In this document: positions 3,158-19,337 of the stretch, in pieces
How positions within the stretch are numbered: the first letter of the stretch is position 1
Layout: each line of letters begins with the position of its first letter
Origin: Gemmatimonadota bacterium
GTDB lineage: Bacteria > Gemmatimonadota > Gemmatimonadetes > Gemmatimonadales > GWC2-71-9
Assembly (NCBI GenBank): GCA_039586365.1
Contig: JBDHKN010000018.1
Coordinates: 22,643 to 86,642, forward strand
Direction: 5' to 3'
DNA length: 64,000 nt
The notes under the pieces: model-generated
Seen by the model: only the letters and a program-made list of their open reading frames with translations
Database searches by the model: none
What the model was told of the DNA's origin: nothing
Translations under genes and position numbers: made by a program

Positions 3158-4451
3158 ATGAGGCATATGACTTCGACACATACGATCGAGCAACGGCGGA
3201 ACATCTGGTCTCGTGCAGCTGAGTTGGCGGCTGAGACTCCGGAGTCGCGTAACCGCTACGTGGATTTCCTGCGCGCCCTGTCGATTGGGGCTGTGGTGAT
3301 TGGGCATTGGCTGGTCGCCGCCCCGTACTTGAATGGCGGGGAGATCAACCTGGAGAACATGCTCTATTACCAGCCCTGGACCCAGTGGCTCACCTGGGCG
3401 TTTCAGGTCATGTCCGTCTTTTTCATCGTGGGTGGATACTCCAACGGGGTCTCTTGGCGATCGGCCCAGCGATCGAATCGCAGGTACGCTGAGTGGTTGA
3501 GCGGGCGACTGCAACGACTGGTAGGTCCCGTGTTGCCGCTGCTGTTCGTTTGGGCGTTGCTCGGCGCTATCGCTCACTGGTGGGGAGTCGATCCCGGGTT
3601 GATCAAGCTGGGCTCCCAAATGGCGCTCATCCCGATCTGGTTCCTTGCGGTATACGTAGGCGCTGTAGTGCTGGTGCCGGTCACTCATGCGGCCTGGCAA
3701 CGCTTCGGCATGTGGTCGTTTGTGGCACTTGCCGTCGCCGCCGCGTTGGATGATGTTGGTCTGGCTGGCCGTACATCAGCTGGGTTACGCGTGGCATGAT
3801 GGAAGACTCACGGGACTCTCGAAATTGCTCCCGCTGTGTCTTGGAGCTCTGCTGATACTGGTTGGCCTCGTGACCCTGGGGCCTTATCCACTGAGCATGG
3901 TCAGTGTGCCGGGTGAGGCTGTCAGTAACTCGCTGCCACCCAAGCTCACGATGCTGGCGCTAGGTGTGTTCCAGGGTGGCCTGCTCCTCTCCTTGGAAGC
4001 GCCGCTACGTCGCTGGCTTACGCGCATGACGCCGTGGACGGCAACGGTGCTGGTGAACGGGATGATCATGACGATCTACCTCTGGCACCTGAGCGCCATG
4101 GCATTGATCGCCGGTCTGGGGCTGGCGACTGGCTTTGCAGGTTTGACTCTGGTACCAGGGAGTGGCGTGTGGTGGCTGTGCCGACCGGTGTGGATTGCTA
4201 TCCTCCTGGTTGTCTTGGCTCTATTCGGACTGATCTTCGGGCGGTTCGAACGCTCCGCTGCTGGGTCTGGCAGTATCGGCGCGTGGCGACTCATAGTTGG
4301 ATCTGCACTAGTGTGTGGTGGACTGGCCTTGGTGGCGCTGGACGGGGTCGGAGGAAGTGGTTGGCTCGGGATTCGCATCTGGGTAATCGCGCTTCCGTTT
4401 GTTGGGGCGGCTGTAGCAGGAGTGAACCCAATGCGCAGCCGGCCGGGTTAG
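3158..4451 (+). pseudogene. Acyltransferase_3 family membrane acyltransferase, frameshifted near 3755
   Basis: N-half (RNRYVDFLRALSI..VVIGHW..FFIVGG) in ORF 3158-3799; C-half (LVWLAVHQLGYAW..MTIYLWH) in a second frame, ORF 3687-4451. Confidence 0.8.
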
Positions 4452-7104: not shown

Positions 7105-7428
7105 GTGACCGAACTGTTCGTAGGTGCAGCCGTAGCTACAGGCTTCTGGCTGACCGTGCAATTCACTCGTAGGAAGTCCCTCGCGGTCAGATGGTGGCAG
7201 TGGGGCCTGACAGTGTTGGGTTTCATCTATCTGGTGTTTGTGGCTGAGGTTGTGGTTGGCTTCCTGAGGGAAGGGACTCCCAAGGGCGCAGTGGTGATGG
7301 GAACGATGTTGGGTTTCGTAGCGGTTGTGTGGGGTGTCCTATTGGGACGGTTCGTCTTTCGCGGCAATCTCGCACCGAGGGCTGAGAGCGGTGAGGTGTC
7401 AGGGACAGGAGGTGAACATGTCGCATAG
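7105..7428 (+). CDS. rdhB: Reductive dehalogenase membrane anchor (RdhB-like)
   Basis: GTG after AAGGAG; ~107 aa with 3 TM helices, WWQW and EGxPxGA motifs; overlaps the rdhA start. Confidence 0.8.
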   Translation: MTELFVGAAVATGFWLTVQFTRRKSLAVRWWQWGLTVLGFIYLVFVAEVVVGFLREGTPKGAVVMGTMLGFVAVVWGVLLGRFVFRGNLAPRAESGEVSGTGGEHVA

Positions 7429-8821
7429 ATCCATGGACAGGCGAGAGTTTCTGGGATTGTTGGGTGCCGGCTCGGCCATCACGAGCGTTGGGTTCGGCGG
7501 CACGCGATTGGTAGCGCGGACGAACAGCGGCGCGGTAGTTGAGTCAGAGAGTGAGTACGGTGGCTTCTTGGTCGAAAAGCTGACGACCGGGCAAATCCCT
7601 TACGAATGCGATCCCACCGTGCTGCGACGGATGAGTGAGAAGAACACCGTGTTTAGCCGCAACGGGTGGGATCACGTCCGGCGGGACATCTTGACAGCGG
7701 CCGATGACATCACTGAAATCAACCTAGTGGAGGGTGAGGGGAAGAACCCTAATCAGACCAGGCTGGATTACGCGCTGATGGCGGCTGCGTGGCGACACGC
7801 GAACATGGGAGGCAGTGGTGGTGACTACGGCTGGGGTAGTGCCGGTGGGATGGTGAGAGACGCTGGGCTCCACGAGATGGGACCGTGGGATCCTGCCGAA
7901 TTGGGGATGACCTGGGAGGATGCATCTCTCGCCGTGAGACACGCCGCACTCTTCTACGGTGCTTCACTCGCTGGAATAGCCGAACTCAACCCGTTGTGGC
8001 TCTACGCGGATCACTACGCCCCCACCCGGGATAACGCCGAGCGAGCCGTCCCTGTCCAATCAGAAGGGGACCGGCTCGACCGGGGTGGGGATGCGTGGTA
8101 TATCCCACAGTCGATGAATCGGGTTATAGCCTTGGCGTTCGAGGAGTACTACTTCGGGATTGCCAACTCACCTGGAAGGTTGGCATCGGCAGCGACAGGT
8201 GACGGTTATTCGCGGATGGCGGTAACGTCGTCCACCCTTGCGGATTTCATACGGGGGCTGGGTTATCGGGCCTTACCGGCGGGCAATGGCGTTGGCTTGA
8301 GCATCCCCATGGCAATCGACGCCGGTTTGGGTCAGCTCGGACGCCTCGGGCTGCTCATCACGCCAAAGTACGGCCCTCGTGTCCGTCTCGCCAAAGTGAT
8401 AACCGACATGCCACTGGTTCCGAACAGTCCTATCGATTTCGGGGTGACGGAATTCTGCGACATCTGTATGCTGTGCGCTGACGAATGTCCGAGCGGCGCG
8501 ATCACCGATGGTCCACGTACCTGGGAGGGCAAATCGGTCTCCAACAATCCGGGCACACACAAATGGTATGTGGAACCCGAGAAGTGTTACGACTTCAATG
8601 GCTTCAGTTGCTCCAACTGCAAGCGTTGTTGCCCATTCAACAAGCCCAATGACTCGTGGCTCCATCGAATGATCAGAGAGGTCGTAGCTGGACGAATTAG
8701 GCCTGCTGATCGTGTGATGGTTCGTCTGGATCAAGTGAGTGGGTACGGGAGGCAGCTAGAGGATACCGAGTTTTGGAGGTTGGATGGGAGCAAGAGTGTC
8801 ACGGCGCGTGAGAGGATGTGA
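7418..8821 (+). CDS. rdhA: Reductive dehalogenase catalytic subunit 1 (Tat-exported, cobamide and 2x Fe-S)
   Basis: Tat DRREFL; GYSRM; AGLGQLGRLGLLITPKYGPRVRL; FCDICMLCADECP; CYDFNGFSCSNCKRCCP; AGGAGG RBS. Confidence 0.92.
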   Translation: MSHRSMDRREFLGLLGAGSAITSVGFGGTRLVARTNSGAVVESESEYGGFLVEKLTTGQIPYECDPTVLRRMSEKNTVFSRNGWDHVRRDILTAADDITEINLVEGEGKNPNQTRLDYALMAAAWRHANMGGSGGDYGWGSAGGMVRDAGLHEMGPWDPAELGMTWEDASLAVRHAALFYGASLAGIAELNPLWLYADHYAPTRDNAERAVPVQSEGDRLDRGGDAWYIPQSMNRVIALAFEEYYFGIANSPGRLASAATGDGYSRMAVTSSTLADFIRGLGYRALPAGNGVGLSIPMAIDAGLGQLGRLGLLITPKYGPRVRLAKVITDMPLVPNSPIDFGVTEFCDICMLCADECPSGAITDGPRTWEGKSVSNNPGTHKWYVEPEKCYDFNGFSCSNCKRCCPFNKPNDSWLHRMIREVVAGRIRPADRVMVRLDQVSGYGRQLEDTEFWRLDGSKSVTARERM

Positions 8822-9006
8822 ATTGAGGAAAGACCATGTCTGAAGCTGGCCTGCTATCTCGGGGGACAGCATTCTCAAAGCACCACTCACCTCACACGTG
8901 TTCGAAGAGGTTGACGATGTTCTCTCTGCTGCGGCGTAACAGGGAGAATTGCGGCACCTGTTCGATGGAATCACGACTGGCGAACCACCAAAAACGAGCG
9001 TGAACC

Positions 9007-10512
9007 GTGAGCGAGAACCAACCGGAGAGCGGGGTTAGCCGGCGTCAGTTTTTGAAGGGTGCTGGAGTGGTGAGCGGAATAGCTGGTGGTGCTGGCCTTG
9101 GGCTGTTCGGCTATGCCGCTGGCAGGGACCCACATACGTACCTTGGCTGGCAGAACGAACAGGGTGCGAGCCAGACCTTCTACAGAAAGCGTTATGAGGT
9201 GGAAGAGCCCACATATGAGGTCGTCGGACCCACCAGCCGTCCAGACGCCCGGGTCGAGAATATCTTCGCGCGCCGCGGCAGCTTCCGAATACAGTACACG
9301 AGGGTCAAGGAGGGTGGTGAGTTCGAGGAACCCCTCAAGTCGTACTACGATAACCACCCACAAGATCTCGAGTTGGATATCATCAACCAAGAAGAGATCA
9401 TGCCCCGGATGATGCAGGATCAGGCTACGTACGGCGACCAATTCCTGCTTGCGGTGGCCTGGTCGAGCGCAATGGGTGCTGTCTCTCCTCTGCCGATATC
9501 CGGTCCGCCCCAAGAAGCCGATTTCCCTCGGCCCAGAGGCGGTGGGATGATGGCGGGTGGAATGGGTATGGGGGGGGCGCCGCAACCGTTGCGGCTCAAG
9601 GATCCGGCAAAGACCGCACTGTTGATCAAGAAACTGGCTCACGAGTTCGGCTCCACTCTCGTGGGGATAACCGAACTCAATCCGGACTGGGTCTACGGCT
9701 ATCCGCTCCGCGGCAGGGGCTTCGAGAACGTAGACGAGCCGCTGGAGATCCCGGCTCACTGGAAGTATGCGATCGTGGTTGGGACACCGATGTCATGGGA
9801 TCCCATGTACGCCAATCCCAACTACGGCACTTCCAACGATGCCTACTCGCGCTCCCGTATCATTGCAGCGCGGCTTGCGGCCTTCATCAAAGCATTGGGA
9901 TATCCGGCTCGCACGCACACTCCAGGCAACAGCTATGATCTGATGGTACCGCCGATTGCGGTCGATGCAGGTCTGGGTGAACACGGACGGCACGGCATCG
10001 TGATCACTCCGGAGCTGGGGAGCAACATCAGACCGGCTATTGTGACCACCAACATGCCGATGGCTACCGACAAGCCTATCGACTTTGGTGTGCAGGATTT
10101 CTGTAGGCACTGCAAAGTCTGCGCGGAGAATTGCCCCAGTGGTGCAATCACGCTGGGTGACAAGGTCGAAGTGCGGGGCTACCGCCGCTTCAAGGTCGAC
10201 ACGGCGAAGTGCAACAACTTCTGGACGTCAAATCTCGGGAACATCGGTTGCCGCCTCTGCGTCAGTGTATGTCCCTACACTCGTAAGGCCAACTGGCTCC
10301 ACAGAACCGCACTCAAGTTGACAGCAAACGATCCTACCGGTCTGTCGGAGCGAACGTTGACGGCACTTCAGAAGGGGATGTACGACGCTCCTGATCCGCA
10401 GACCTACTACATGCCGTCACTTGGTGGCGAGAACTCCTCATATCGTGAGCCCCCCTGGTGGCTCAAGACGGAAGACTTCATCGAACTCGAGGCAGACCAT
10501 GCAGATCTTTAA
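9007..10512 (+). CDS. rdhA: Reductive dehalogenase catalytic subunit 2 (Tat-exported)
   Basis: Tat SRRQFLK; AYSR; AGLGEHGRHGIVITPELGSNIR; FCRHCKVCAENCP; CX12CRLCVSVCP. Confidence 0.92.
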   Translation: MSENQPESGVSRRQFLKGAGVVSGIAGGAGLGLFGYAAGRDPHTYLGWQNEQGASQTFYRKRYEVEEPTYEVVGPTSRPDARVENIFARRGSFRIQYTRVKEGGEFEEPLKSYYDNHPQDLELDIINQEEIMPRMMQDQATYGDQFLLAVAWSSAMGAVSPLPISGPPQEADFPRPRGGGMMAGGMGMGGAPQPLRLKDPAKTALLIKKLAHEFGSTLVGITELNPDWVYGYPLRGRGFENVDEPLEIPAHWKYAIVVGTPMSWDPMYANPNYGTSNDAYSRSRIIAARLAAFIKALGYPARTHTPGNSYDLMVPPIAVDAGLGEHGRHGIVITPELGSNIRPAIVTTNMPMATDKPIDFGVQDFCRHCKVCAENCPSGAITLGDKVEVRGYRRFKVDTAKCNNFWTSNLGNIGCRLCVSVCPYTRKANWLHRTALKLTANDPTGLSERTLTALQKGMYDAPDPQTYYMPSLGGENSSYREPPWWLKTEDFIELEADHADL

Positions 10513-10819
10513 CAGCGGCCTGTTCTGGTTTGTCGAAGGAGTTCTCTGTTGTGTCACACTGCTCGGACTCAAGGCATGGGCGCAGGATCGCTCGATCCCG
10601 ACACCGTGGTGGAAGTGGGTCGTGTTGGTGCTGTGGGTAAGTCTCGCTGGCTTCACCATTGCGTTTGTAGGTACAAGCTTCGGTGAAGGTGAGTCGACTG
10701 CGGCGATCCGTGGTGGTATGCTCTTCGGTATCCTTGCCGTGTTGTCAGGAGTTGGCGCGTGGCGACTGTGGATGATCGGGGCCGGGTCTAGTAACCAAGT
10801 GACGGATGCGAAGCCATAG
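10499..10819 (+). CDS. rdhB: Reductive dehalogenase membrane anchor 2 (RdhB-like)
   Basis: 106 aa with 3 TM helices, PWWKW and EGExxAA motifs; overlaps the rdhA2 stop. Confidence 0.82.
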   Translation: MQIFNSGLFWFVEGVLCCVTLLGLKAWAQDRSIPTPWWKWVVLVLWVSLAGFTIAFVGTSFGEGESTAAIRGGMLFGILAVLSGVGAWRLWMIGAGSSNQVTDAKP

Positions 10820-11966
10820 ACGCGCGCTATTCGCATACTCGCTCGGAGTCATCGCGCTCATCATCGCGCTTTGGTACGGTAGGACGCGAACAGCGCCAGA
10901 TCTTGCCGTGCCCATTGCAGAGATATTTCCCCAGGCTACGGCTTTCAGATTCGAGCGCGGTGTGTTCCACGTCTACGACGATCGCGAGAGTCTACTGGGT
11001 TGGGCTGGTAGCGGCAGTGAGAGTGGGTATGGCGGTCCGATGTTACTCGTTGTGGGGATCGACACCCTTGGGAGGGTAGCTGGGTCAAGGGTTGTAGAGC
11101 AACGAGAGACACCGATATTCTGGCGGATGGTGAAGGCAAGGGATTTCCTCACATCGTTCGTTGGTGACCACTTCGACCAAATCAACTACGACTATGGCGC
11201 AGTAGTTGGTTTGACCGGTGCGACAATTTCGGCGACCGCGATTGGCGCGAGCGTGAGGAGTGCCGTTGCCGACTTGGCCAGTGAAGCATTCGATGTCACC
11301 GTGCCGGTCCCAGCCCGGCCCTTCGAGTTCGGGCTTCTCGAAATCACCGTCCTGCTATTGTTCATTGTCGGTGCGGTCACACAGCGGGCGCGAGGTCCGG
11401 TGCGGCGTCGAGTCAGGTGGGCATGCCAGATCACAGGGCTCCTTGTCCTAGGCTTCTGGAGAGATTCACCGATCACGCTCGCAAAGATCACGGCACTGCT
11501 TTCCGGATACTTCCCGGATCCGCGGACTCAAGTTGCGCTCTATTTGTTGATCGCAGGCTTTGTGCTGACATCGTTCCACTGCAGCCGCAACCTCTATTGC
11601 CTTTACGCCTGTCCATTTGGGACAGCACAGCGGTGCGTTGGCGTCATCGGCGGGAAAGGTCTCAAGCTTCCGATCTGGTTCGTCCGGTGGATGGAGCGGA
11701 TCCGCAACGTTGCGGTGTTCGCGGCCATGTTCATGGCGTTTCTCACCCTCAAGCCGGTGTTGGCCAGCTACGAGCCCTTCGCGGTACTCTTTTCGCTCAA
11801 CGGGACAACTCTGCAATGGCTCTTGTTGTTCATAGTGTTGGTGATGTCGCTAGGGATCAGCACTCCCTGGTGCAACCTGTTTTGCCCGATGCGCACCATA
11901 GAACTCCTGTTCCAGAATCTCCGCAGGACGTTACGCGGACCACGGACGGCATCCGCGAATGAATGA
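10806..11966 (+). CDS. rdhC: RdhC/NosR-NirI-like membrane protein: FMN-binding domain plus polytopic Cys-motif domain
   Basis: GYGGP; flavinylation motif LTGATIS; CX3CP motifs YCLYACP and WCNLFCP; multiple TM helices. Confidence 0.85.
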   Translation: MRSHRRALFAYSLGVIALIIALWYGRTRTAPDLAVPIAEIFPQATAFRFERGVFHVYDDRESLLGWAGSGSESGYGGPMLLVVGIDTLGRVAGSRVVEQRETPIFWRMVKARDFLTSFVGDHFDQINYDYGAVVGLTGATISATAIGASVRSAVADLASEAFDVTVPVPARPFEFGLLEITVLLLFIVGAVTQRARGPVRRRVRWACQITGLLVLGFWRDSPITLAKITALLSGYFPDPRTQVALYLLIAGFVLTSFHCSRNLYCLYACPFGTAQRCVGVIGGKGLKLPIWFVRWMERIRNVAVFAAMFMAFLTLKPVLASYEPFAVLFSLNGTTLQWLLLFIVLVMSLGISTPWCNLFCPMRTIELLFQNLRRTLRGPRTASANE

Positions 11967-12075
11967 CCAAAGTAAGCATGCAGTCAGGCTGTATGACGTT
12001 GCGCTAGTTGTACTTGGGCTGTCGGTCTTTGCGGTGATTGCCGCGATCCTGGTACAGGGCCATCTTGGTGTGTGA
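11959..12075 (+). CDS. 38-aa single-TM microprotein
   Basis: ATG overlaps the rdhC stop (ATGAATGA); MNDQSKHAVRLYDVALVVLGLSVFAVIAAILVQGHLGV. Confidence 0.6.
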   Translation: MNDQSKHAVRLYDVALVVLGLSVFAVIAAILVQGHLGV

Positions 12076-12101
12076 GCAGGGAGCAGGGAGCAGGGAGCAG
12101 G
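12074..12101 (+). repeat. (GAGCAGG)4 heptamer tandem repeat
   Basis: Read directly from the sequence. Confidence 0.9.
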
Positions 12102-12155
12102 AGTCCCATAATGGATAGCTGACAGGCGTCGCTGACTGCCGATAGGAGCAGACCC

Positions 12156-16024: not shown

Positions 16025-16573
16025 CTATACCTTGTCCCGCAAGATCTCAGGGCGTGGCTGAGGAATGACGACTTTGTTGACCAACAGGCCTTTGTTGCGA
16101 ATGTATGCAGCACCTGCATCGACGGCGGTGGTCACGGCTGCCACGTCGCCGGTCAGTGTGACGTATCCTTTGCCACCGATCGCCATGGCCAGGTGGATCT
16201 CTATCAGCTGTACGTGTGCGGCTTTCACAGCCGCATCGGCGGCTTCGATGATCGACGCTACCGAAAATGTCTCAATGATTCCCAGGGCGCCCGTCTTTTC
16301 GATCACCCGGGTGCCGCTGATCGCTGGGAAAACCTCAGGGTGGACGTTAGGGATGATGAGATCGTCGACCACTGTGTCGCCCCCGATCTCCAAGCCAGCC
16401 TCGATGCTGGAGCGTACTGCGGCGGTCTCACCCGCCACCATCACCATGAATTTCCCTGGGCAAATCGATCGATTGAATACCATCTGGACCCTTGCCGCCT
16501 TGAGCAACGCATCCGCAACCTCGTAACCTTTGGCTATCGACGTCAGCTCGATCAGTCCGATGGAGTGTTCCAT
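16025..16573 (-). CDS. pduT: Tandem-domain microcompartment shell protein (BMC-T, PduT-like)
   Basis: Two BMC domains (SIGLIE..ADALLKAA; ALGIIE..ADAAVKAA); Fe-S-ligand motif ICPGK. Confidence 0.9.
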   Translation of the reverse strand: MEHSIGLIELTSIAKGYEVADALLKAARVQMVFNRSICPGKFMVMVAGETAAVRSSIEAGLEIGGDTVVDDLIIPNVHPEVFPAISGTRVIEKTGALGIIETFSVASIIEAADAAVKAAHVQLIEIHLAMAIGGKGYVTLTGDVAAVTTAVDAGAAYIRNKGLLVNKVVIPQPRPEILRDKV

Positions 16574-16597
16574 CAATACCTTGGCCGTTTACCTAGT

Positions 16598-17935
16598 TCA
16601 CGAACCGGCCGGCGACCGGTCTACCACGATCGTGTCGTCAACTGAACGCACGATTCCAGTCAGGCTAGCATGAATGGGGACGCTCAGTCCGGACGCCACC
16701 TCTTTGGCCACCATATCTCCAAGTTTGACTTCAGCTCCCTCGGCGGCCACCGGAATGGCAGCGAGACCGATATGCTGTTGCAGTGGAATGGCTACGGTAC
16801 TTGGTTCCGGCACATCGGCCCGTAGCGGAGCTGCTGCAGAGTAGCGGTCCAACCCAAGGCGTCGAGTCAGCCGGCCTGTCGGTACCCCGCGGTAGCTCTT
16901 CAAGGGATGTACGTCCTGTGCTAGCCGTTGGAGTTGTTCGGGCGACAACCACTTATCGCGCTTCTTGAGATCCCGCTTGGTCACGACGCACACGTTCCGT
17001 GGATCGAGGTCCTCCGGACAGGCCCACAGAGAGCAAATGTTGCAGTCGCAGCAAGCCTGGGCCCAATGTGTGAGAGTCGTACTCATCTCACCGCTGGTAA
17101 GCAATGACCGCATCACGAGATGAGGTTGGATCGGGTATCCGAGGAGGTATCGCGGACACATTTCCGTACATAGACTACACTGATCGCACGCTGACTTGCC
17201 GAAGCGCACGAATGCAGTCTCCGTTTGAGACTTGCGTACTGCCAGCCTTGACTTACGTGGTACTGCGATGAATCCACTCGAGACTCGCGTGACAGGAGTC
17301 GACATATCAGTTACCACGCTACCCATCATCGGTCCACCATCGATCAAGACGAAGTCTTCGATGGTCGCCCCCCCGGCGGCCCGGAGCACATCACCGTAGC
17401 TCATGCCGATCGGGAACCATGCCGTGAGCGGTTGCTGTACGTCACCGTGCACAGTCATCATGGAATGTGTCACAGGATGGCCGTGGGCAGCACGGTGTAC
17501 GTTGTACAGGGTCTCGACGTTTTGTACTAGTACACCGATGTCAAGCGGTAATCCTCCTGCGGGAATCCGTCTACCAGTAGCTTGGTAGACCACTTCGTAC
17601 TCATCACCGGCAGGGTACACGTCATCCATCTCGCGGACCGTGATGTTCGTCGGTGAGTGCTCTGAGATCGAGCGTATCGCTTCCCGGTTCTTTCCCTTGA
17701 TGGCGACGATCCCTCGCTCGGCACCCGTATGCTCCATCGCGCGCAACATCCCATCGAGGATCTCTGCCGGATAGTGTTCCATTACCGCTTGATCTTTGTA
17801 GAGCAGTGGCTCGCACTCGGCCCCGTTGGCGATGACCGTGTCCACACGCGTGTCAATCTTCTTGTAAGTAGGGAAACCAGCCCCACCTGCGCCGACCACG
17901 CCTGCGCTTTGCACTAGTCGGACTAGACTTGCCAT
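16598..17935 (-). CDS. pduS: PduS/RnfC-like flavin-Fe-S oxidoreductase
   Basis: GVVGAGGAGFPT, NGAECEP, YPAGDE, GGPMMG, CDQCSLCTEMCP, CCDCNICSLWACP, C-terminal PLQQHIG barrel. Confidence 0.88.
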   Translation of the reverse strand: MASLVRLVQSAGVVGAGGAGFPTYKKIDTRVDTVIANGAECEPLLYKDQAVMEHYPAEILDGMLRAMEHTGAERGIVAIKGKNREAIRSISEHSPTNITVREMDDVYPAGDEYEVVYQATGRRIPAGGLPLDIGVLVQNVETLYNVHRAAHGHPVTHSMMTVHGDVQQPLTAWFPIGMSYGDVLRAAGGATIEDFVLIDGGPMMGSVVTDMSTPVTRVSSGFIAVPRKSRLAVRKSQTETAFVRFGKSACDQCSLCTEMCPRYLLGYPIQPHLVMRSLLTSGEMSTTLTHWAQACCDCNICSLWACPEDLDPRNVCVVTKRDLKKRDKWLSPEQLQRLAQDVHPLKSYRGVPTGRLTRRLGLDRYSAAAPLRADVPEPSTVAIPLQQHIGLAAIPVAAEGAEVKLGDMVAKEVASGLSVPIHASLTGIVRSVDDTIVVDRSPAGS

Positions 17936-18005
17936 GTTCCGGTGCAGGCCGGCGCCGGCTGGTACATACTCTTGTGTTGGATGACGGCAGGCCTGGACGG
18001 TTGCA

Positions 18006-19253
18006 TCAGGGGTGTGGAACATCCGATAGCACGCGGAATGTATCGCGGGCGATCAGGAGTTCTTCGTTGGTGGGTATGACATAGGCTTTGAGGGCGGCAC
18101 CGTCGGCCGTGATTTCGCCTAGCAGGCCCTCAGCCAGATTGTTGTTCTTCTCCGTGTCGAGTATCAACCCAATCGCCTCCAACCCCATACTGATCCGCTC
18201 GCGGATTTGGGGAGATCGCTCGCCGATGCCACCGGCGAAGATGACGGCCTCCGCTCCTCCCATCTCGGCCAGGTACGCTCCTATGTAGTGCTTGACGCGA
18301 TGACAAAACATGTCGATCGCCAGTCTCGCTCTGCGGTCTTGGTTCTCTGCCTCCTCCTCCAACAACTCCTTCATATCGCTAGTAAGACCGGACACGCCGA
18401 GCAAGCCAGAATGCTTGTTGAGCATGGTGTCGATTTGCGCAGTGCTCATTCCCTCTTGAATCGACAGGTATTCGATCAGAGATGGGTCGATGCTTCCTGA
18501 GCGGGTGCCCATAACCAGGCCCTCGAGCGGTGTGAATCCCATCGATGTGATGTACGACTCACCTGCCTTGATCCCACACGCAGAGCAGCCATTCCCCAAA
18601 TGGAGAGTTATGATGTTCACTTGCTCACGACTCAGTCCCACGATCTTCCGGTAACGGTAGGATAGATAGCGGTGTGACGTGCCATGGAAACCATAGCGCC
18701 GGATCTTGTGTCGGCGGTACAACTGATAGGGTATAGGGTACAAGTAAGAGGTTTCCGGCATCGTCGAGTGAAAGGCCGTATCAAACACCGCGACCTGTGG
18801 TATTCCCTCACCAAGAATCTCGGTTGCAGCTCGAATACCCTTGAGGTTTGCAGGGTTATGTAGCGGTGCCAGATCGATGCAGTCTTCGATGCCTTCGATC
18901 ACCTCAGCGTCGATACGAACCGACGTTCGGAAATGCTCGCCCCCGTGCACCACCCTATGGCCCACCGCATGGATATCTGCCAGAGACGAGATATTGCTGA
19001 CCGCCGACGCTCGCGAGACGATCCACCGCAGGATGGTGTCGATGGCCGCACGATGGTCCCGCAGTGCCTCGGCATGCTTCTCTTTGGGATGTCCGTCGGC
19101 TTGGAAAGTGAGCAGCGCCTGTCCTCCAACCCGTTCCACGACGCCGCTCGCCAGCCGACGATCGGCGTCGTTAGATATGCGATCGAGGTCAGTTTCGATG
19201 ATCTGGAATTTTACCGTCGCGGAACCACAATTGAGTACCAGTACATTCATCAT
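18006..19253 (-). CDS. ackA: Acetate/propionate kinase
   Basis: NCGS, HRVVHGG, APLHNP, DTAFH, GFHGTSH, HLGNG, TPLEG, PTNEE. Confidence 0.95.
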   Translation of the reverse strand: MMNVLVLNCGSATVKFQIIETDLDRISNDADRRLASGVVERVGGQALLTFQADGHPKEKHAEALRDHRAAIDTILRWIVSRASAVSNISSLADIHAVGHRVVHGGEHFRTSVRIDAEVIEGIEDCIDLAPLHNPANLKGIRAATEILGEGIPQVAVFDTAFHSTMPETSYLYPIPYQLYRRHKIRRYGFHGTSHRYLSYRYRKIVGLSREQVNIITLHLGNGCSACGIKAGESYITSMGFTPLEGLVMGTRSGSIDPSLIEYLSIQEGMSTAQIDTMLNKHSGLLGVSGLTSDMKELLEEEAENQDRRARLAIDMFCHRVKHYIGAYLAEMGGAEAVIFAGGIGERSPQIRERISMGLEAIGLILDTEKNNNLAEGLLGEITADGAALKAYVIPTNEELLIARDTFRVLSDVPHP

Positions 19254-19337
19254 GAGACCCCGTCGACCGATCCCTCGGAGGGAAGCTACCAACCGTGGGG
19301 GCGGTCTCCAGTGTGCAGCGGTCAGTGATCGGCCACT

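What the first reader, a model, noticed from the sequence alone, without database searches (positions are those of the whole stretch)
7105..12075. Dual Tat-RdhA respiratory-type dehalogenase locus (rdhB1-A1-A2-B2-C) in a probable Gemmatimonadota genome
Seen: two full-length RdhA homologues with twin-Arg signals and both Fe-S motifs, each overlapping its own 3-TM RdhB-like anchor in mirror order (B-A, then A-B), followed by an overlapping flavinylation-motif RdhC. Established: Tat-RdhA with RdhB and RdhC is the architecture used by organohalide-respiring Desulfitobacterium, Dehalobacter and Desulfobacterota, unlike cytoplasmic catabolic NpRdhA/BhbA or QueG. Inference: the flanking genes point to Gemmatimonadota-like peptide degraders, in which I know of no demonstrated organohalide respiration. 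This could be an undescribed respiratory module with two divergent catalytic subunits sharing one RdhC. No rdhK, rdhT, cobamide gene or mobile element is adjacent.
Basis: partly seen in the sequence, partly recalled or inferred. Interest (0 to 1): 0.9.

Follow-up and report, generated by a model that had tools for sequence, protein, structure and literature searches.

The report
Conserved two-dehalogenase operon in sediment bacteria
A five-gene cluster that recurs in uncultured sediment bacteria joins two distantly related enzymes predicted to use vitamin B12 to strip halogens from organic compounds outside the cell; both enzyme types were already catalogued, but their stable pairing likely lets these generalist bacteria use two different sets of halogenated compounds.

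Summary
The locus is real: rdhB1-rdhA1-rdhA2-rdhB2-rdhC plus a 38-aa membrane ORF. Both RdhAs pass TIGR02486 (214 and 179 bits, cut-off 160), fail QueG, and keep the catalytic Tyr/Arg and both Fe-S motifs in 118-119 of 119 homologues. A1 keeps all five PceA menaquinone-pocket residues; A2 keeps two or three. They are 33% identical and lie in separate clades. Neither is new: Han et al. 2025 (PMC12219181, Table S7) lists Tat/RdhB RdhAs in Gemmatimonadota and files orthologues of this pair as 'quinone-dependent' (A1) and 'novel clade' (A2). I found the joined operon discussed nowhere in seven searches. All 27 linked cases fall in one A2 subclade, which points to one origin. Either half also occurs alone, with or without rdhC, so they are not obligate partners. 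The host is probably Gemmatimonadota, has oxygen reductases and likely imports B12; a genus-mate has the empty site. Activity, substrate and respiration are untested. The scan earlier noted an rdhAB relative of A2 on other DNA (e1-5119699), not this pairing.

The parts
7105..7428 (+). rdhB1: 107-aa membrane anchor (WWQW, conserved Glu56 in the loop)
   Evidence: directly upstream of A1 in 61 of 63 decidable A1 loci; no blastp match to B2 or to the T. lovleyi anchor
7418..8821 (+). rdhA1: 467-aa Tat-signal RdhA of the PceA-like, quinone-dependent type
   Evidence: TIGR02486 214 bits; best PDB match S. multivorans PceA, E 1.5e-61; Y264, N290, R323, K409, H416, R420, Y443 in 119 of 119 homologues, D438 in 118
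9007..10512 (+). rdhA2: 501-aa Tat-signal RdhA of the 'novel clade' of Han et al. 2025
   Evidence: TIGR02486 178.5 bits; best PDB match NpRdhA, E 8e-46; orthologue on L007 is Han's novel-clade gene _11; Y280 in 118 and R342 in 119 of 119
10499..10819 (+). rdhB2: 106-aa three-helix membrane anchor (WWKW, E63-G-E65)
   Evidence: directly downstream of A2 in 72 of 72 decidable A2 loci; its ExE aligns with that of the T. lovleyi anchor, E 7e-4
10806..11966 (+). rdhC: 386-aa membrane flavoprotein, predicted FMN on Thr140, two CX3CP motifs
   Evidence: PF04205 and PF12801 above cut-off; motifs; 24% over 325 aa to the gene in the pceC position of T. lovleyi pIAE1
11959..12075 (+). 38-aa single-helix ORF overlapping the end of rdhC; role unknown
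   Evidence: weak matches (12-15 bits) behind rdhC in 5 loci; T. lovleyi pIAE1 also has a 47-aa hydrophobic ORF overlapping the end of its rdhC-like gene

Best explanation
The locus encodes two separate RdhA-RdhB pairs and one shared RdhC, which likely work as two parallel, outward-facing cobamide enzymes that take electrons from menaquinol and reductively remove halogens from two different sets of natural organohalides. Shown: gene anatomy, motifs, family membership, independent occurrence of each half, and the clustering of all linked cases in one subclade. Inferred from the PceA2B2 structure (PMC10624902): each RdhA is exported by Tat and docks on its own RdhB; menaquinol is oxidised at the A/B interface and electrons pass through two [4Fe-4S] clusters to the cobamide. 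This step is strongest for A1, which keeps the whole pocket, and weaker for A2. RdhC is likely flavinylated by ApbE and an accessory electron carrier for either pair. The host is likely a facultative generalist that imports B12 and uses organohalides as an occasional electron sink.
For: TIGR02486 passed, QueG model failed. Catalytic and pocket residues map on PceA and are near-invariant. B1 precedes A1 in 61 of 63 loci and B2 follows A2 in 72 of 72. After A1 comes A2 in 17, C in 30, neither in 16, undecidable in 4 of 67 loci; after A2-B2 comes C in 32, none in 28, undecidable in 20 of 80. Inside the operon subclade either half can be missing while C stays: L011 is B1-A1-C; L088, L093, L106, L145 are A2-B2-C. 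Single-record chromosomes G026 and G047 hold A1 and no A2. The genome has tatC, two ApbE genes, two methylmalonyl-CoA mutase genes, a cobalamin riboswitch and homologues of the genes that follow it in genus-mates, read by me as btuF-btuC, and two heme-copper oxidase genes. Operon carriers G057 and G200 have menaquinone genes.
Against: No member of either clade has shown activity that I could find; Han et al. say validation is still needed. PF13486 is not passed. A2 lacks the counterparts of PceA N272, R499 and D515. A1 lacks counterparts of PceA W376 and Y382, so its pocket differs from PCE enzymes. No mqnA/D, mqnC, menB or cobS was found in this 86%-complete genome. The hydrogenase seen looks cytoplasmic, by my reading of its neighbours. 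No regulator or riboswitch lies at the locus.
Confidence: 0.55

Rival explanations
1. One or both proteins are exported cobamide reductases for a common non-halogenated substrate; A2 is the likelier one.
For: Both families stay 62-79% identical across at least 119 clusters each, from several phyla of generalist degraders, which suggests an old, common substrate. A2 sits on a long branch far from the reference enzymes. PF13486 is not passed.
Against: Catalytic Tyr/Arg, RdhB-type anchors and RdhC are all kept; both are far from QueG, and the genome has its own QueG-like gene.
Confidence: 0.2
2. They are true dehalogenases but serve detoxification, or prepare halogenated aromatics for use as carbon, without supporting growth by respiration.
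For: The host has oxygen reductases, only three rdhA genes over the cut-off and no cobS. The module is patchy: A1 in 1 of 7 genus-mates and 1 of 400 phylum genomes.
Against: A1 keeps the full menaquinone pocket. No degradation gene is a conserved neighbour across 160 loci.
Confidence: 0.15
3. In this lineage A1 and A2 assemble into one mixed complex (A1-A2-B1-B2, with C) with two different active sites acting in sequence.
For: The order B1-A1-A2-B2-C is kept in 27 loci of one subclade. The two halves also meet in other orders (L058 divergent; L140 A2-B2-B1-A1-C; L017 remnant). In one other class 4 of 201 genomes hold both, against 0.56 expected if independent.
Against: 6 of 17 decidable A2-seeded loci of the subclade have no A1 upstream. 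26 of 50 A1 genomes have no A2-family gene above 500 bits. 10 of 14 A2 genomes in that class lack A1. The two are only 33% identical over 263 aa.
Confidence: 0.1

Closest known systems
PceA2B2 menaquinol:organohalide oxidoreductase and pceABCT of Desulfitobacterium hafniense TCE1 (PDB 8Q4H; PMC10624902, passages read)
   Same: Tat-RdhA, small anchor, RdhC. A1 has counterparts of Y337, R396, K489, H495, R499, D515 and Y520; B2 has the ExE loop.
   Different: Two different RdhAs and two different anchors in one cluster; rdhB1 precedes its rdhA; no rdhT seen; A1 is 36% identical over 387 aa to the T. lovleyi plasmid enzyme of this type; substrate unknown.
'Novel clade' and 'quinone-dependent respiratory' RdhA-like groups of cold seeps (Han et al. 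2025, PMC12219181; sections 6, 7, 9 and rows of Tables S4, S7, S10 read)
   Same: Genes _10 (467 aa, quinone-dependent) and _11 (485 aa, novel clade) of contig k141_3879587 are the A1 and A2 orthologues of locus L007. Gemmatimonadota carriers with Tat and rdhB are listed.
   Different: The main text has no hit for 'operon', 'two rdhA' or 'rdhC'; it treats the genes singly, and its table gives both genes the downstream rdhB. Its figures and figure supplement were not visible to me.
Paired rdhAB loci of Sulfurospirillum (plasmid pSulSP)
   Same: Two rdhA-rdhB pairs in one region.
   Different: There the two RdhAs are close sisters in the tree, lie about 4 kb apart with two-component regulators, and sit beside cobamide synthesis and NapGH-like genes.
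Catabolic NpRdhA / BhbA
   Same: NpRdhA is A2's best PDB match.
   Different: A2 is 501 aa against 704-725, has a Tat signal and an anchor, and does not group with the Comamonas plasmid enzyme.

Membership tests
Reductive dehalogenase RdhA | TIGR02486 above curated cut-off | tested here: met
   214.4 (A1) and 178.5 (A2) against 160.35
Reductive dehalogenase RdhA | PF13486 above gathering score | tested here: not met
   A1 16.1 bits against 24.3; A2 no hit at E 0.01
Reductive dehalogenase RdhA | Two Fe-S binding motifs | tested here: met
   Both motifs in both proteins and in 119 of 119 homologues each
Reductive dehalogenase RdhA | Catalytic Tyr and Arg (DhPceA Y337/R396) | tested here: met
   A1 Y264/R323; A2 Y280/R342 (residues named)
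Reductive dehalogenase RdhA | Cobamide binding and halide release | not testable with these tools
   Needs purified enzyme
Respiratory (prototypical) RdhA | Twin-arginine signal | tested here: met
   RREFL, RRQFL; RRxF-like in 106 and 111 of 119 homologues; PF10518 itself below cut-off; tatC present
Menaquinol:organohalide oxidoreductase (PceA2B2 type), A1 | Quinone-pocket residues K489, H495, R499, D515, Y520 | tested here: met
   K409, H416, R420, Y443 in 119 of 119; D438 in 118
Menaquinol:organohalide oxidoreductase (PceA2B2 type), A2 | Quinone-pocket residues K489, H495, R499, D515, Y520 | tested here: inconclusive
   R426 and H432 invariant, Y459 a possible match; hydrophobic residues at the R499 and D515 positions, where the alignment is uncertain
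RdhB | Small adjacent protein with three membrane helices and loop glutamates | tested here: inconclusive
   B2 meets it (3 segments, ExE). B1 shows 2 segments above threshold and one conserved Glu, and no match to the T. lovleyi anchor; no Pfam or NCBIfam hit for either
RdhC | FMN motif [S/T]G[A/S]TX[S/T] and two CX3CP motifs (PMC5928378) | tested here: met
   TGATIS 137-142; CX3CP 265 and 356
RdhC | Six membrane helices | tested here: inconclusive
   Six hydrophobic windows found, but one covers the FMN motif
Han et al. 'novel clade' | Placement with members of that clade | tested here: met
   A2 and L007 A2 (Han's gene _11) share a strongly supported clade
QueG epoxyqueuosine reductase | TIGR00276 above cut-off; grouping with QueG | tested here: not met
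   45.1 and 55.4 bits against 200; separate from both QueG rows
Organohalide-respiring bacterium | Growth coupled to dehalogenation | not testable with these tools
   Uncultured host

The most novel reading that the evidence does not exclude
Sediment Gemmatimonadota respire organohalides with a five-subunit A1-A2-B1-B2-C membrane complex that joins two RdhA clades into one machine with two different cobamide sites, removing different halogens in sequence from one menaquinol/flavin input.
Probability: 0.1. Interest if true: 0.8.

Novelty: new variant of a known kind. Interest (0 to 1): 0.42.

Why it matters
A1 and A2 stand for two large, well-conserved RdhA families of sediment generalists for which I found no assayed member. 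This locus supplies both, with their own anchors and an RdhC, as one 5-kb unit that can be expressed and dissected half by half. It makes three open questions testable at once: what the 'novel clade' does, whether RdhC is needed when the quinone pocket is complete (A1) or altered (A2), and whether a phylum not known to respire organohalides does so.

Tried and rejected
Chimera: rejected. Local duplication giving A1 and A2: rejected, 33% identity and separate clades. Recent foreign origin: not supported; third-position GC is 0.67-0.69 in the module and 0.67-0.69 in four neighbours, and the genus-mate G057 copy is 71-72% identical, like hutH at 71-74%. A pathway with hutH or the Vps10-domain gene: rejected; these two are neighbours without the module in G052, G057 carries the module among other genes, and no neighbour family recurs in more than 11 of 160 loci. 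Riboswitch, promoter or terminator at the locus: none above chance. Marker-gene taxonomy: no 16S and no rpoB in the assembly; ten further window proteins gave no taxon names. Expression: no RNA holder listed, which is no evidence either way. Structure: the A1 model was poor (pLDDT 49.9) and was not used; the A2 model reached 71.7, but no fold search was obtained. Complex prediction of A1 with A2 was not available. The careful tree did not finish; one search is the quick tree and one search is FastTree. A look-up of four named cold-seep genomes in Han's table found nothing. A word search of earlier findings for this pairing found none.
Full report
Observation. Both large proteins pass TIGR02486 (214.4 and 178.5 bits, cut-off 160.35) and score far below the QueG cut-off. 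Neither passes PF13486. C carries the FMN motif and two CX3CP motifs that PMC5928378 uses to define RdhC. There is no sign of a chimera: six of the genes recur in clusters with one independent 12,696-bp contig length, and contigs of another run bridge hutH-B1, A1-A2 and the end of C.

Host. The flanking hutH-like and Vps10-domain proteins share 90%-identity clusters with Gemmatimonas sp. SG8_17, and the nearest named carriers of A1 and A2 are Gemmatimonadota. The assembly (5.44 Mb, 86% complete) has no 16S or rpoB, so the placement rests on neighbours. It has tatC, two ApbE genes, two methylmalonyl-CoA mutase genes, a cobalamin riboswitch and two heme-copper oxidase genes. The genes behind that riboswitch in genus-mates, which I read from sequence as btuF-btuC, are present on another contig. 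No cobS, mqnA/D, mqnC or menB was found. mqnC is over cut-off in 3 of 4 genus-mates tested, among them the carrier G057, and the carrier G200 has menB. A third, membrane-helix-type RdhA lies on contig C63.

Two different enzymes. A1 and A2 are 33% identical over 263 aa. A1's best solved relative is PceA, A2's is NpRdhA. In a quick tree of 68 rows they lie in separate, supported clades, both far from QueG; the deep order is unresolved. Mapped on PceA, A1 keeps Y246/Y337, N272, R305/R396 and all five menaquinone-pocket residues in 118-119 of the best 119 homologues, but has no counterpart of W376 or Y382. A2 keeps the Tyr, the Arg, a basic residue and the His, but not N272, R499 or D515. Each has at least 119 clusters above 62% identity, named where named as Gemmatimonadota, Latescibacteria, KSB1, Aminicenantes and Planctomycetota.

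Synteny. I took the best 80 of 157 A1 loci from genomes and the best 80 of 127 A2 loci from metagenomes. Of the A1 loci, 67 scored 600 bits or more and 13 were dropped. B1 precedes A1 in 61 of 63 decidable cases; A2 follows in 17, C in 30, neither in 16, and 4 are too short. B2 follows A2 in 72 of 72 decidable cases; C follows in 32, not in 28, and 20 are too short. So B1-A1 and A2-B2 are the fixed units and C is optional. Among 97 A2 rows of 500 bits or more, all 27 with A1 directly upstream (window included) lie in one subclade of 40 rows (support 99), with 6 rows lacking A1 and 7 too short; outside it 0 of 35 decidable rows have that order. Fifteen of the 27 were found through A1; in the A2-seeded set the count is 11 of 17, and some rows are identical sequences. 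The ten linked A1s in the tree that have this order form one clade with L011 (support 98). One fusion, inherited together with occasional loss of either half, is the simplest reading. The halves also meet in other orders in L058, L140 and, as a remnant, L017.

Are they obligate partners? No. Of 50 genomes with A1 and no adjacent A2, 17 have A2 elsewhere, 7 more have a more distant A2-like gene and 26 have neither; two of these are single-record chromosomes. In 201 genomes of the class of G026, 8 have A1, 14 have A2 or A2-like genes and 4 have both, against 0.56 expected if independent; kin, habitat and completeness are not controlled.

Distribution. A1 is in 1 of 7 genus-mates and none of 53 other relatives. 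In 400 phylum genomes A1 is in 1 and A2 in 2, with only 3-4 candidates scored per genome. In G052 hutH is followed directly by the Vps10-domain gene, the empty site; G057 has the module among other neighbours. Third-position GC matches the neighbours. No outside gene travels with the module.

What is in print. Han et al. 2025 (PMC12219181) reports respiratory-type rdhA-like genes in Gemmatimonadota and lists 30 or more. Its Table S7 classes genes _10 and _11 of contig k141_3879587 as quinone-dependent and novel clade; that contig is locus L007, which has B1-A1-A2-B2-C. A Gemmatimonadetes contig there also holds one gene of each class side by side. So both families, and the raw pair, are in a published table. 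The main text does not mention an operon, two rdhA genes or rdhC. I read passages, sections 6, 7 and 9, and rows of a spreadsheet that was cut; I could not see the figures or the figure supplement, which may draw the pair. Of PMC5928378, PMC10624902, PMC12090745 and bioRxiv 10.1101/2020.10.01.322446 I read passages only; the last two report RdhAs in Bacteroidota and marine Acidobacteriota. Seven searches listed no paper on this operon or on organohalide respiration by Gemmatimonadota; other hits were seen as listings only, and most subscription journals are not covered.

Mechanism. Most likely (0.55) two parallel RdhA-RdhB enzymes face outward, oxidise menaquinol, and pass electrons through two [4Fe-4S] clusters to a cobamide that cleaves a carbon-halogen bond, each with its own substrates, with RdhC as a shared accessory flavoprotein. 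The anatomy is shown. Export, quinol use, activity and energy gain are inferred. Rivals: a non-halogen substrate (0.2), dehalogenation without respiration (0.15), a mixed A1-A2 complex (0.1).

Verdict. A correct observation; a new variant of a known kind. The parts and their presence in this phylum are published. The conserved joined operon appears not to be discussed, and it is a convenient test system for two unassayed families. Interest 0.42.

Noticed in passing
window 3158-3799 and 3687-4451 (+): An acyltransferase-3 gene lies in two overlapping frames, while genus-mate G054 has one 440-aa frame; likely a frameshift or an assembly error.
   Followed up: partly
window 16025-19292 (-): Acetate kinase, an RnfC-like Fe-S/FMN protein and a double-BMC shell gene form a small microcompartment-type cluster.
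   Followed up: no
L003 1435-2868 (-), G000:C63: A third RdhA with N-terminal membrane helices and no Tat signal, just over the TIGR02486 cut-off.
   Followed up: partly
L004 1501-1959 (+), G000:C86: A 259-aa frame with a weak RdhA/QueG-type match (67 bits), apart from the QueG-like gene on C125.
   Followed up: no
window 12072-12103: A short run of a 7-base unit just behind the module recurs at many places in genus-mates.
   Followed up: no
L195 5745-5888 and window 11959-12075: A tiny one-helix ORF overlaps the end of the rdhC-like gene both here and in the T. lovleyi plasmid cluster; possibly an overlooked small subunit.
   Followed up: partly
G000:C14 7268-14799: A NiFe hydrogenase cluster beside a 1092-aa Fe-S protein; looks cytoplasmic by my reading of the ORFs.
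   Followed up: no
L018, L045, L097, L017: Broken or frameshifted A1 or A2 copies in several assemblies: decay or assembly error.
   Followed up: no
L080-L085: Archaeal relatives of A1 at 37-52% identity; the four placed in the tree (Thorarchaeota, Promethearchaeota, one unnamed archaeon) form their own clade.
   Followed up: no
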